A stretch of 64,000 nucleotides of DNA from a virus (lineage: Duplodnaviria > Caudoviricetes): the IMG/VR virus record IMGVR_UViG_3300046820_001270, positions 128,001 through 192,000 of that record; one strand, written 5' to 3'. Shown piece by piece: positions 26,338-35,192 of the stretch; within the stretch, counting starts at the first letter, position 1, and each line of letters starts with the position of its first letter. The position numbers and the translations under genes are program-made. Under the pieces are notes generated by a model that was not told the origin of the DNA, did no database searches, and saw only the letters and a program-made list of their open reading frames with translations.

Positions 26338-27528
26338 ATGAAATTAATTGATATTATATTTGAGTCGGTTATTGATATGGGTGAGGTTCATGGTCAGAAA
26401 TTAACCGATGCCGATTTTATTAATAGATCTAAAAAAATATGGGGAGATAGGTATGACTATGGTAATGTAAACTATTATGGTAGTCATATACCTGTTAAAA
26501 TTAAATGTTTAAAACATAATAACGAATTTGAACAAAGGCCCGCAAATCATTTAAACGGATCACAAGGTTGTAAGTATTGTGTTGAAAAACCTGACAGGTC
26601 TTTAACATTATCTGATTTTGTTAAAAAATCACATGATGTTCATGGTAACAAATATGACTATGATAAAGTAGTAATGGGTAAAAAGAATACACATAAAGTT
26701 GTTATCACTTGTCCTAAACATGGAGATTTTTTACAATCTGTTGCATCTCATTTAAAAGGTAACGGTTGTAAAGTATGTGACCTTGAAAATCGTAGTTTGG
26801 ACACAGATGAGTTCATCAAAAAGTCAAAAGAAAAACATGGAGATAAATACGATTATAGTAAAGTAAATTACGTTAATAATAAAACACCCGTACATATTAT
26901 ATGTCCAATACATGGGGATTTTTTACAAATACCTCATAGACATTTAATAGGAAACGAATGTCCTAAATGTGGTAATAGTAAAAAAGGTCAACGTTCAATG
27001 ACACGTGATGAATTTATATCACGAGCAAAAGAAAAACATGGTGACAAATATAGTTATGATAATGTAATAATGGGTAAAAGAGTTCACGATGATAAAGTAT
27101 GGATTACATGTCCCAAACATGGTGATTTTTTACAATCCCCATGGAATCATATCAATTCGGCAGGTTGTCCCGTTTGTCTTGAACCGAGAGGAGAATCTAA
27201 AATAAGAAATATATTAAAATCATTGAATGTTGATTTTTCTAAAGAACACGTATTTGATGATTGTGTGAACACAACTAGCGGTAAAAAAAGATGTAAAAAA
27301 TTACAATTTGATTTTTATATCCCATCTAAAAATATTGCTATCGAATATGATGGAATACAACATTTTAAACCAGTTAAAAGATTTGGGGGTATTGAAGTGT
27401 TCAATACTCAAAAAATTAACGATAAAATTAAAGATGAGTATTGTGAAAAAATGGGTATTAAATTAGTTCGTATTCCATATACCGAATTTAAAAATCTTGA
27501 AGAAATATTAAAAACGTTATTAGTTTAA
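26338..27528 (+). CDS. Hef-like endonuclease: four DUF723-type zinc-ribbon repeats plus PD-(D/E)XK (DUF559/Vsr-like) domain
   Basis: YDY..V......V.I.CPKHG.F.Q.P..H..G..C..C x4; FDFYIP..NIAIEYDGIQHF; MKLIDIIFE leader. Confidence 0.85.
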   Translation: MKLIDIIFESVIDMGEVHGQKLTDADFINRSKKIWGDRYDYGNVNYYGSHIPVKIKCLKHNNEFEQRPANHLNGSQGCKYCVEKPDRSLTLSDFVKKSHDVHGNKYDYDKVVMGKKNTHKVVITCPKHGDFLQSVASHLKGNGCKVCDLENRSLDTDEFIKKSKEKHGDKYDYSKVNYVNNKTPVHIICPIHGDFLQIPHRHLIGNECPKCGNSKKGQRSMTRDEFISRAKEKHGDKYSYDNVIMGKRVHDDKVWITCPKHGDFLQSPWNHINSAGCPVCLEPRGESKIRNILKSLNVDFSKEHVFDDCVNTTSGKKRCKKLQFDFYIPSKNIAIEYDGIQHFKPVKRFGGIEVFNTQKINDKIKDEYCEKMGIKLVRIPYTEFKNLEEILKTLLV

Positions 27529-27540
27529 TTAAATAAGATT

Positions 27541-27565
27541 AACCCTCCATAATGGAGGGTTTTTT
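27541..27565 (+). terminator. intrinsic terminator
   Basis: AACCCTCCA-TAA-TGGAGGGTT-TTTT. Confidence 0.8.
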
Positions 27566-27599
27566 ATTTAATATTATATTGGGATATTTATATGTGTAT

Positions 27600-32520: not shown

Positions 32521-32530
32521 AACAAAATAT

Positions 32531-32641
32531 ATGGGAACAAAGGCAAATAAACCACGTGCTATGAGAAGTAGAAGAAGTGGTATTAAATCATTAAACATAG
32601 TTAAGAAAAATTTAGAAATTCTAAAGAAACTTAAGGGGTAA
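32531..32641 (+). CDS. very small basic peptide (36 aa)
   Basis: MGTKANKPRAMRSRRSGIKSLNIVKKNLEILKKLKG; stop overlaps next ATG (TAATG). Confidence 0.5.
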   Translation: MGTKANKPRAMRSRRSGIKSLNIVKKNLEILKKLKG

Positions 32642-33285
32642 TGAAAATATTAATTTCGGAAGAACAATTAAAACGTATTATATCCGAACAACCCGAATCA
32701 AGGTTTGCACCAAGAGGTATGTCCAATAAAGAACATATGGATGCTCTTAATAGAACCACTTTAAATCCAAATTTGGATGCTGACGATTATGCGGATATAG
32801 TGTCAGGTTTAATTGATGTTATACCTGGTATTGGTAATGGGATATCGGGAGCAATTGATATAACACATGGTATTACCTATATTGTTAGATATTATTATGC
32901 AAAAACTATAGAAGAGAAAGTTGAATTGGCCGTAATGGGACTTATTACGTTAGGTATGACATTTATCCCTGTTGGGGGTAATGCAACAAACATATTAGCG
33001 AGAAGTGAAATTAAAACGTTATTAAAGAAAACTCCATATGAAGTACGTTTGATGATGAAAAATATGGGACTTATAAAAAGTGCGGGATTCCAATTATCAA
33101 AACAAGCGTGGAAATATTCTTTCTTAATTGCACTCGTAAAAATATTCAGAGGTCAATTAGATAGTGTAATTGGAGATGTTTCGAGAACTTTAACGTCTAT
33201 CTCCAACAAATCTAAGGAACTAAGTCCTATCTTACAAAACTATATGAAAACTATAAACGAACTTAAAAATATTAACAAGGCGTAA
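32641..33285 (+). CDS. leader-bearing protein with pre-toxin-TG-like hydrophobic helices
   Basis: MKILISEEQL; DIVSGLIDVIPGIG..ISGAID...LGMTFIPVGG. Confidence 0.65.
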   Translation: MKILISEEQLKRIISEQPESRFAPRGMSNKEHMDALNRTTLNPNLDADDYADIVSGLIDVIPGIGNGISGAIDITHGITYIVRYYYAKTIEEKVELAVMGLITLGMTFIPVGGNATNILARSEIKTLLKKTPYEVRLMMKNMGLIKSAGFQLSKQAWKYSFLIALVKIFRGQLDSVIGDVSRTLTSISNKSKELSPILQNYMKTINELKNINKA

Positions 33286-35192
33286 TGAAAATACTTTTAA
33301 GTGAAGAACAATATGGTAAATTGATTGAAGCGAATCAAACTTATTCATTTCCTGAAAATAAAGGGGATCTTGATGCGTATATAAGAAGTTTTACCGAGAA
33401 AAACACTAAAAAAGAATTACAAGTAAAACATAATCCAATTTATTATAGATTATGGGCGGGTGGATTGTTAGATAAGTATTATCCCCCTAAAAAACCAATT
33501 ACCAAAAATGAAATAAAAAAATACATTAAGGATAATAATATTACATTAAAATCAAGTGATATAAAAGGGGATACAAGATCATTATCTCAAATGAATGGAA
33601 CTTATTACCGAGCTGCGTGGAGTAATGGATGGTTAGATGATTTATTTCCAAAAGAAAGTGATAAAAAAATATTTAGTAGAATAAAAAAATATATCAAGGA
33701 TAATGATTTAACAAGATCAACATTTAGGTTCAAAAAGTATTATCATATTGCTATCTCAAAAAATTGGATGGATTTGTTATTTCCACCAACAATTGGAACT
33801 AAAGATGAATTTATTAAAACTTGTAAAAAATCACATAAAGGAAGAGATTATGACTATACGGACATAGATTTTAAAGGTACTGGATATGAAATAACAATTA
33901 TTTGTCATAGAAAAGATAATGAGGGAAATGAACATGGACCATTTACTGTGGGGGCTGGAAAACATAAGTTAGGTGATGGAGAATGTAAAAAATGTTTATG
34001 TCAAGACAGAACAGAAAATTTCATTAAAAATGCAATTGAAAAACACGGGAATAAGTATGGTTATGATAAAGTCGATTTTTGTGATCCAAAGTATCAAGTA
34101 AAAGATACCTCAGGAAAAAATAAACATAGATGGTATTTTCCAATATATTGTGAAACACATAAAACTTATTTTAGACAAAGAACGGATATACATTTAACTC
34201 CACATGGATGCCCTTATTGTGCGGAATCACAAGGTGAATCGGCAATTAAAAAAACATTAGATGAGATGGGGTTAAAATATTCGGCGTGGGAAAGTTTTGA
34301 TTTTTGTACCAATCAAGGTTATAAAGGAAGAAAATGTACTGATTTAGAATTTGATGTTTATATCCCCGATATGAAAACTATTATTGAATACGACGGAGGA
34401 GGACACTTTGGACCAATTGATTATTTTGGAGGACAAGATACTTTTACACAAGTTGTACATTACGATAATTTGAAAAATGAATTTTGTGATGGACAATATA
34501 ATATACGTGGAACTCATATTGAAAAACTAATACGTATATCAGATAAAACCCCATTAAACGAAATACCAAGTGAAGTTAAACGTTTAATTATGGGTAAAAG
34601 AAAAGGTTTGTTATTATCAAAAAATTACCCATCCGCTGGTTGGAATGGAGGTGGTATAAACGAATCCAAATTATCGTTTGAAAATGTCTTAACCGAAAAG
34701 TTAAGAGATATGGTGTCAATTCCAATCTATCACCATACCACAGAGGAACGTGCTTTGGGTATTATGAATAGTAATATGTTAAAAGGATCTAAACAATATG
34801 AGGAGGTTTTAAATTTAGATAGAACATTAAAACAATCCAAACATAAAACAATGGTTTCCTTTACTCGTGATAAGAACTTTATACCAGATGGGTCTATTGG
34901 TAATTCTGGGGATGGTCCTCGTATTAAACCTGATATGTTGAACGTAATCTTTGTTGCAGATAGAAGTCGTCTTAAATCACGTTATAGGGTGGTTCCTTTT
35001 GATTATGGAACAATTGCAAATAAAGCTTGGATGGATCCAGTTCCACGTAGTCGTAAAAACCCTGAGGTAGAAGAAAGAGTATTAACTGATCGAATATATC
35101 CATTAAGACAATACCTTACAAATATTATTTATACAGGTCAAGATCTTGAGATACAAAAGAAGATAGATGAGTATCTATCGGGTATTAAATAA
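33285..35192 (+). CDS. leader + zinc-ribbon/PD-(D/E)XK nuclease + C-terminal ADP-ribosyltransferase-like domain
   Basis: FDVYIP..IIEYDGGGHF; INESKLS junction; IYHHT...VSFTR...EVEE. Confidence 0.75.
   Translation: MKILLSEEQYGKLIEANQTYSFPENKGDLDAYIRSFTEKNTKKELQVKHNPIYYRLWAGGLLDKYYPPKKPITKNEIKKYIKDNNITLKSSDIKGDTRSLSQMNGTYYRAAWSNGWLDDLFPKESDKKIFSRIKKYIKDNDLTRSTFRFKKYYHIAISKNWMDLLFPPTIGTKDEFIKTCKKSHKGRDYDYTDIDFKGTGYEITIICHRKDNEGNEHGPFTVGAGKHKLGDGECKKCLCQDRTENFIKNAIEKHGNKYGYDKVDFCDPKYQVKDTSGKNKHRWYFPIYCETHKTYFRQRTDIHLTPHGCPYCAESQGESAIKKTLDEMGLKYSAWESFDFCTNQGYKGRKCTDLEFDVYIPDMKTIIEYDGGGHFGPIDYFGGQDTFTQVVHYDNLKNEFCDGQYNIRGTHIEKLIRISDKTPLNEIPSEVKRLIMGKRKGLLLSKNYPSAGWNGGGINESKLSFENVLTEKLRDMVSIPIYHHTTEERALGIMNSNMLKGSKQYEEVLNLDRTLKQSKHKTMVSFTRDKNFIPDGSIGNSGDGPRIKPDMLNVIFVADRSRLKSRYRVVPFDYGTIANKAWMDPVPRSRKNPEVEERVLTDRIYPLRQYLTNIIYTGQDLEIQKKIDEYLSGIK

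What the first reader, a model, noticed from the sequence alone, without database searches (positions are those of the whole stretch)
26338..35192. Hef-like endonuclease modules inserted between packaging leader and effector domain, with shared INESKLS junction
Seen: three paralogous zinc-ribbon + PD-(D/E)XK nucleases, all with leaders. In 27600-30050 and 33285-35192 the nuclease is followed by nearly the same DNA/peptide junction (ATAAAYGAATCCAAATTATCG, INESKLS, at 29214 and 34656) and then an unrelated C-terminal domain (HExxH or ART-like). The 26338 and 27600 genes share the identical upstream GGGATATTTATATGTGTATATGAAA. Inference: a mobile endonuclease that inserts in-frame at leader sequences and is freed by proteolysis at INE rather than by splicing, so it could be virion-delivered.
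Basis: partly seen in the sequence, partly recalled or inferred. Interest (0 to 1): 0.7.

Follow-up and report, generated by a model that had tools for sequence, protein, structure and literature searches.

The report
Mobile nucleases flanked by protease sites
In this uncultured giant phage and its relatives, homing-type DNA-cutting genes sit among genes for head-packaged proteins. Some lie in frame inside the packaging tag of a cargo enzyme, between cut sites for the phage's own head protease, so they may spread without splicing and travel inside the virus particle; neither has been measured.

Summary
The sequence features are real, but the model fits only one of the three genes.

Gene 33285-35192 is a clean 456-codon in-frame insert relative to an empty allele (L038: both flanks 91% identical, no gap; L033 is similar). 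Relatives fill this site with at least four nuclease lineages of two unrelated folds (Hef/EDxHD, GIY-YIG), always in frame. All 10 fused junctions keep an [I/L]-x-E site, against 16 of 51 free-standing tails. Relatives encode a T4 gp21-type protease, and their capsid propeptide ends in the same INE.

Corrections:
- INESKLS is normally the C-terminal tail of free-standing nucleases.
- The HExxH fusion is cargo appended to a nuclease, with no empty allele found.
- The shared promoter and leader also precede non-nuclease cargo genes.
- The three nucleases are only about 31% alike.

Best reading: mobile nuclease cassettes shuffle through a T4-like capsid-cargo cluster by recombining at leader and tail sequences, and fusions are tolerated because the prohead protease frees the cargo. 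Homing, cleavage, packaging and gain versus loss are untested. The scan found such cargo polyproteins before on other phages; I found no paper on leader-bearing homing nucleases.

The parts
26319..26343 (+). T4-like late promoter (TATTTATA) plus start; generic for cargo genes of this cluster
26338..27528 (+). Nuclease 1: short leader (26338-26364), DUF723/DUF4379 zinc-finger repeats, Hef/EDxHD domain; free-standing, no INESKLS tail
27581..27626 (+). Late promoter and short leader (ending in L-E) of nuclease 2
   Evidence: the same leader is on free-standing homologues
27600..29213 (+). Nuclease 2 (family A): zinc-finger repeats plus Hef/EDxHD domain; under purifying selection
29214..29267 (+). 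Linker: predicted protease site I-N-E, leader-like helix KLSLIDV, second site I-K-E; ends in a stop in most relatives
29268..30050 (+). HExxH gluzincin-like metallopeptidase cargo domain; absent behind the same nuclease in L023
33285..33314 (+). Host part of the long leader (10 codons), collinear with empty allele L038
33315..34682 (+). 456-codon in-frame insert relative to L038: completes the left L-I-E site, then nuclease 3 (divergent Hef/EDxHD), then INESKLSFE
34656..34697 (+). Linker: predicted site I-N-E (34656-34664), leader-like helix, second site L-T-E (34689-34697)
34698..35192 (+). ADP-ribosyltransferase-like cargo domain (H...S...E motifs); a stand-alone gene in most relatives
22812..40825 (+). 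Surrounding hypervariable cluster of late, leader-bearing putative head-cargo genes

Best explanation
The region is a hypervariable cluster of T4-type head-cargo genes colonised by homing-type endonuclease cassettes (Hef/EDxHD and GIY-YIG). Each cassette starts in a packaging leader, and many end in a tail made of a protease site plus a leader-like helix (INE-SKLS...). These short shared ends act as crossover points, so cassettes move between slots and replace each other. If a stop follows the tail, the nuclease is free-standing. If the tail is joined to the next cargo gene's leader, a two-enzyme polyprotein results. That fusion is tolerated because the gp21-type prohead protease cuts after the glutamates on both sides, releasing the nuclease and an unchanged cargo with no splicing. 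Nuclease and cargo would then be in the head and enter the cell with the DNA. SHOWN: occupied and empty alleles, repeated replacement with frame kept, retention of the site in fusions, protease and capsid genes in relatives. INFERRED: processing, packaging, nuclease activity, and spread by self-promoted homing.
For: L038 matches window 32404-33314 and 34683-35192 with no gap, both 91.2%; L033 has the same empty leader. ART-fused alleles carry Hef nucleases (window, L011, P0045, P0046) or GIY-YIG nucleases (P0047-P0049, L055) at the same syntenic slot. Fused and free forms interleave in both nuclease trees. One clade of fused ART alleles is rejected, p-AU 2e-7. The window's leader and junction DNA are nearly identical to L023, which has a different nuclease and a divergent ART. 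[I/L]-x-E precedes the tail in 8/8 counted fusions (10/10 with L028 and L055) versus 16/51 free tails, Fisher p 3e-4, rows not independent. The middle residue varies (N, Q, G) and codons vary synonymously. Hef and GIY-YIG genes share identical tails. Relatives encode Peptidase_S77 and gp23, and the capsid propeptide reads YLINE-AA. ART homologues in another clade sit in polyproteins joined at xxE-S linkers. dN/dS is 0.17-0.20 for nuclease 2 and 0.03-0.12 for the ART. Of the about 65 Hef-like nucleases from other phages, none has the tail and only one (L112) has a leader. In T4, a 10-residue tag suffices to package and deliver foreign nucleases (PMC9026906), and the ART Alt is cut at ITE and LTE (PMC5694885).
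Against: There are no biochemical or proteomic data, and the phage is uncultured. Fusion is rare (about 3 of 39 unbiased ART loci; 2 HExxH cases). The two empty long-leader alleles could be precise deletions at an AAT microhomology rather than pre-insertion sites. No clear resistant-target signature lies next to the insertion. No empty site was found for the HExxH gene. The window's own protease and capsid genes were not available. [I/L]-x-E is a low-information motif. A packaged active nuclease would need the phage's own DNA to be protected.
Confidence: 0.6

Rival explanations
1. True protease-excised homing element. The nuclease cuts the empty leader/ART junction DNA, copies itself in frame into that exact site, and uses the prohead protease in place of intein splicing.
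For: Exact collinear empty allele; several nuclease lineages at one site; cassette on a main-clade ART with the crossover just after the junction; catalytic E, D, H, D residues intact.
Against: The same families are usually free-standing and occur at other slots. Unrelated folds at one site argue for recombination at shared ends rather than one target specificity. T4 free-standing endonucleases cut hundreds to thousands of bp from their gene (PMC2988022). Most empty alleles have a different, short leader.
Confidence: 0.3
2. Domesticated weapons. The nucleases are kept as injected cargo to attack co-infecting phages, host DNA or defence systems, and they vary like any other cargo module; they are no longer selfish.
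For: All cluster nucleases keep a leader with synonymous variation; purifying selection; in the complete relative G001 these families were found only in the cargo cluster. Homing nucleases are known to aid phage competition or defence escape (PMC11620839, PMC13096335, bioRxiv 10.1101/2025.09.07.674715).
Against: Patchy presence and replacement among close relatives, and variable zinc-finger repeat arrays, are typical of selfish homing genes (PMC10448857). Purifying selection also acts on active homing genes.
Confidence: 0.3
3. Neutral by-product. Ordinary free-standing homing genes landed in a repeat-rich cluster, picked up leader DNA as a translation start, and occasionally lost a stop by microhomology deletion; leader and tail do nothing for them.
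For: Leader and promoter are repeated dozens of times; fusions are rare; the glutamate site decays in many free tails; a recent local 92-nt duplication shows illegitimate recombination here.
Against: Frame, glutamate and the linker are kept across at least four nuclease replacements. The KLS(L/F) tail is conserved with synonymous change in both nuclease folds.
Confidence: 0.15

Closest known systems
Hef / EDxHD (Vsr-like) homing endonucleases, prototype I-Bth0305I (PMC3239194); DUF723/DUF4379 zinc-finger HEGs (PMC10448857)
   Same: N-terminal repeated DNA-binding units plus a C-terminal Vsr-like domain with E, D, H, D residues; patchy among close relatives.
   Different: Here they carry a packaging-type leader and a protease-site tail, lie among head-cargo genes, and can be fused in frame to a cargo enzyme without intron or intein.
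T4 free-standing seg/mob endonucleases and intronless homing (PMC2988022)
   Same: Mobile without a splicing element; different nuclease families replace each other at one intergenic slot.
   Different: T4's are separate ORFs between genes. None is described as in frame within a propeptide or as head-targeted.
T4 internal proteins and Alt: capsid targeting sequence plus gp21 processing (PMC9026906, PMC5694885)
   Same: Late genes, short N-terminal tag ending in hydrophobic-x-Glu, gp21-type protease, an ART cargo, propeptides at both ends.
   Different: The tag sequences differ from T4's; the cargo here forms polyproteins and includes mobile nucleases. In T4, packaged nucleases are known to me only as engineered fusions.
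Inteins with homing endonucleases
   Same: In-frame insert of a nuclease in a host ORF, removed after translation, with empty alleles in relatives.
   Different: No Hint domain and no ligation of the flanks; removal would be in trans by the prohead protease at a site where the host protein is cut anyway.

Membership tests
Hef/EDxHD homing endonucleases | Vsr-like C-terminal domain with E, D, H, D catalytic residues | tested here: met
   Motifs aligned and invariant in all three; PHROG endonuclease hits; weak DUF559 hit in P0045. By sequence only; the PDB search gave only AbaSI, E 0.005.
Hef/EDxHD homing endonucleases | N-terminal repeated DNA-binding domains | tested here: met
   DUF723 and DUF4379 above cut-off in gene 1; CxxC repeats aligned in genes 2 and 3.
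Homing endonuclease genes | Occupied and empty cognate alleles in close relatives | tested here: met
   Met for gene 33285 (L038, L033). Not found for gene 27600 with respect to the HExxH cargo.
Homing endonuclease genes | Cleaves the empty allele, spares its own, and is over-inherited | not testable with these tools
   Needs a cleavage assay and crosses; sequence divergence near the site was inconclusive.
Intein / intron-encoded endonuclease | Hint splicing domain or flanking self-splicing intron | tested here: not met
   No Hint/intein family hit; the ORF is continuous; no intron in Rfam.
T4-type capsid-targeted, gp21-processed cargo | gp21-type protease and gp23 capsid in the phage | tested here: met
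   Found in three relatives' records, including a complete 335-kb genome; the window's own genome is not held.
T4-type capsid-targeted, gp21-processed cargo | Short shared N-terminal tag ending in hydrophobic-x-Glu, on late genes | tested here: met
   17 of 69 window ORFs, mostly behind TATTTATA; the capsid propeptide has INE.
T4-type capsid-targeted, gp21-processed cargo | Presence in virions and cleavage after the glutamate | not testable with these tools
   Needs proteomics or in vitro processing.
ADP-ribosyltransferase fold (C-terminal domain of 33285) | H/R...S...E strands and ART fold | tested here: inconclusive
   Motifs invariant; Tox-ART-HYD1 E 0.013, below cut-off; nearest named Atlas clusters are DarT/PARP, Arr and HYD1; the AlphaFold model was unusable, pLDDT 40.
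Gluzincin metallopeptidases (C-terminal domain of 27600) | HExxH plus downstream Glu on a zincin fold | tested here: met
   H128, E129, H132 and E177 invariant in 40 homologues; model pLDDT 94.5; top matches are M13 peptidases, Z 7.3-7.7, rmsd 4.0-4.4, about 170 aligned. The Z is middling and the subfamily is not assigned.

The most novel reading that the evidence does not exclude
A third way for a homing endonuclease to sit inside a gene without harm, besides introns and inteins. It inserts in frame in a capsid-targeting propeptide, brings its own prohead-protease site, is cut out in trans during head maturation, and is delivered pre-made with the genome, so it can cut a co-infecting empty allele before any gene is expressed.
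Probability: 0.3. Interest if true: 0.82.

Novelty: new variant of a known kind. Interest (0 to 1): 0.6.

Why it matters
Homing endonucleases are thought to need an intron, an intein or an intergenic site to avoid damaging their host gene. Propeptides that are removed anyway would be a new safe site, with the phage's maturation protease standing in for splicing. A virion-borne homing nuclease would also act at time zero in phage-phage competition. The system is directly testable because natural empty, fused and free alleles all exist. It may also explain how these jumbo phages reshuffle their injected cargo so fast.

Tried and rejected
- No whole genome is held, so relatives were used for the protease and capsid genes.
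- A DNA-pattern scan for the junction gave mostly chance hits, plus two free-standing nucleases. A second pattern found no new fusion.
- No close relative of nuclease 3 was found (best long match 33%), so its own distribution is unknown.
- The ART model failed (pLDDT 40) and was not fold-searched.
- Foldseek gave no significant hit for the HExxH model.
- None of the 41 HExxH homologues I checked carries a nuclease, and xxE sites before that domain were only slightly above background (11/41 versus 17%), so that test is not used as support.
- The sliding-window search for a resistant target was inconclusive.
- The ART has no match in annotated GenBank phages.
- Four literature searches found no paper on packaged or protease-excised homing endonucleases; one search gave only intein papers. 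The library is incomplete.
- Rejected: intein or intron; recent triplication of one nuclease; the 25-mer as an element-specific end; INESKLS as a fusion-only junction; a single origin of the ART fusions.
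Full report
1. Observation. The three ORFs, the junction DNA at 29214 and 34656 and the shared upstream 25-mer are present as described. The junction has exactly two perfect matches in the window, well above chance. All three proteins have zinc-finger units and a nuclease domain with the E, D, H, D residues of the Vsr-like EDxHD family, which includes Hef (PMC3239194). They are only 31-32% identical and fall apart in a tree. No Hint domain or intron was detected.

2. 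Context. The genes lie in a run of late genes that share a TATTTATA promoter and one of two leader types ending in hydrophobic-x-Glu; 17 of 69 window ORFs start so, and one has an internal copy. The promoter-start motif also precedes stand-alone ART genes and other cargo genes in relatives, so it is not an element end. Close relatives, including a complete 335-kb genome, encode a gp21-type S77 protease and a gp23 capsid protein. The capsid propeptide reads YLINE-AA; placing the cut there rests on my knowledge of the T4 gp23 site. In T4 a 10-residue tag directs proteins, including engineered nucleases, into the head for delivery (PMC9026906), and the ART Alt is cut at ITE and LTE (PMC5694885). 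The cluster is therefore best read as head cargo; this is inference.

3. The ART slot (33285-35192). Forty-five loci gave 35 distinct complete ART alleles: 22 stand-alone with a short leader, 3 with a GIY-YIG gene that stops just before the short leader, 2 with the long leader joined directly to the ART, and 8 fused to a nuclease. Fused forms were partly sought on purpose; in the unbiased scans they are about 3 of 39. L038 is collinear with the window on both sides (32404-33314 and 34683-35192, each 91.2%) with no gap, which defines a 1368-nt in-frame insert. The insert lies inside the leader: it supplies its own left L-I-E and ends in INESKLSFE, and the host's L-T-E remains in front of the ART. 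The fused alleles carry Hef nucleases of two lineages or GIY-YIG nucleases of two lineages. They all start with the long leader and keep the same linker. They do not form one clade on the ART tree (p-AU 2e-7; recombination within the gene may contribute). The window's leader and linker DNA are almost the same as in L023, which holds a GIY-YIG and a divergent ART, whereas the window's ART belongs to the main group. So the middle module has been exchanged repeatedly with frame and ends preserved. Whether L033 and L038 are pre-insertion sites or precise losses at an AAT microhomology cannot be told.

4. What INESKLS is. Of the 44 hits of nuclease 2, the 42 closest are all 449-585 aa free-standing proteins that end 10-21 residues after the start of the KLSL motif. 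The same tail, sometimes letter for letter, ends Hef family B and GIY-YIG genes. In P0038 it continues as a recognisable copy of a cluster leader. The tail is thus a protease site plus a leader-like helix, shared across nuclease folds. The [I/L]-x-E site is present in 8 of 8 counted fusions (10 of 10 with L028 and L055) but in 16 of 51 free tails (p 3e-4, rows related). Its middle residue varies and codons vary synonymously. This is what is expected if cutting matters only when cargo follows. Of the about 65 Hef-like nucleases from other phages, none has the tail and only one has a leader.

5. The HExxH gene (27600-30050). The fusion was found only in the window and L014. L023 has the nuclease at 92% identity, then a stop, then the same next gene. 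Here cargo was appended to a nuclease that keeps its own leader; no empty site was seen. The domain is gluzincin-like. It stands alone behind a leader in more distant phages and inside large proteins elsewhere, and is not nuclease-fused in the 41 homologues checked. Gene 26338 is free-standing and has no tail.

6. Mechanism. Nuclease families occur at more than one slot, fused or free, sometimes twice in one genome. In the complete relative they were found only in this cluster. Nuclease 2 and both cargo domains show dN/dS of 0.2 or less. The simplest account is cassette exchange by recombination at the short leader and tail homologies, probably driven by the nucleases' own breaks as in T4 intronless homing (PMC2988022). 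In-frame outcomes are made harmless by prohead proteolysis. Shown: allele states, replacement, motif retention. Inferred: activity, target, processing, packaging. Overall confidence 0.6. The strict version, in which the nuclease cuts the empty leader site, is 0.3. Domesticated cargo is 0.3 (compatible in part). A neutral by-product is 0.15.

7. Comparison and novelty. The parts are known: Hef/EDxHD and GIY-YIG homing nucleases, and T4-type tagged cargo. The scan has already reported protease-punctuated cargo polyproteins on other phages, which I did not re-test. The combination, mobile homing-type nucleases that carry packaging tags and sit in frame between protease sites with natural empty alleles, did not appear in my literature searches. 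It works like an intein in effect but fails intein membership. Verdict: new variant of a known kind, interest 0.6.

Noticed in passing
window 29476-29567 and 30202-30293: 92-nt, 97% identical repeat: a piece of the HExxH domain copied in frame into the start of the next gene; absent from that gene in L014.
   Followed up: partly
window 32531-32641: Conserved 36-aa very basic ORF just upstream of the variable ART slot in most relatives; its stop overlaps the next start codon.
   Followed up: no
window 35882-37330: Leader-bearing gene present as about 290-aa and 470-482-aa forms in relatives; the extra C-terminal domain in the window follows an I-N-E site, another modular cargo.
   Followed up: no
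window 38648-40825: Internal copy of the long leader at residue 608, preceded by L-K-E.
   Followed up: no
window 30096-31364, 38126-38587, 61753-62904: These genes end in an xxE site followed by a short amphipathic, leader-like helix, suggesting C-terminal propeptides are general here.
   Followed up: no
window 2898-6468: A second group of short-leader genes far from the main cluster.
   Followed up: no
window 35198-35869: Pirin gene without a leader, patchily present right after the ART gene in relatives.
   Followed up: no
window 33333-33800: The N-terminal repeat region of nuclease 3 has no BLAST match to other cluster nucleases; possibly a different DNA-binding module on a Hef domain.
   Followed up: partly
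L112:3001-3291: A Hef-like nuclease of another phage starts with a different leader ending in I-N-E, so leader capture may not be limited to this clade.
   Followed up: no
L157, L160 (record G004): Hef-like matches interrupted only by TAG codons, suggesting a TAG-recoded phage unrelated to this finding.
   Followed up: no
window 23314-23393: Rfam AgrB match below the gathering score over a terminator hairpin; probably chance.
   Followed up: no
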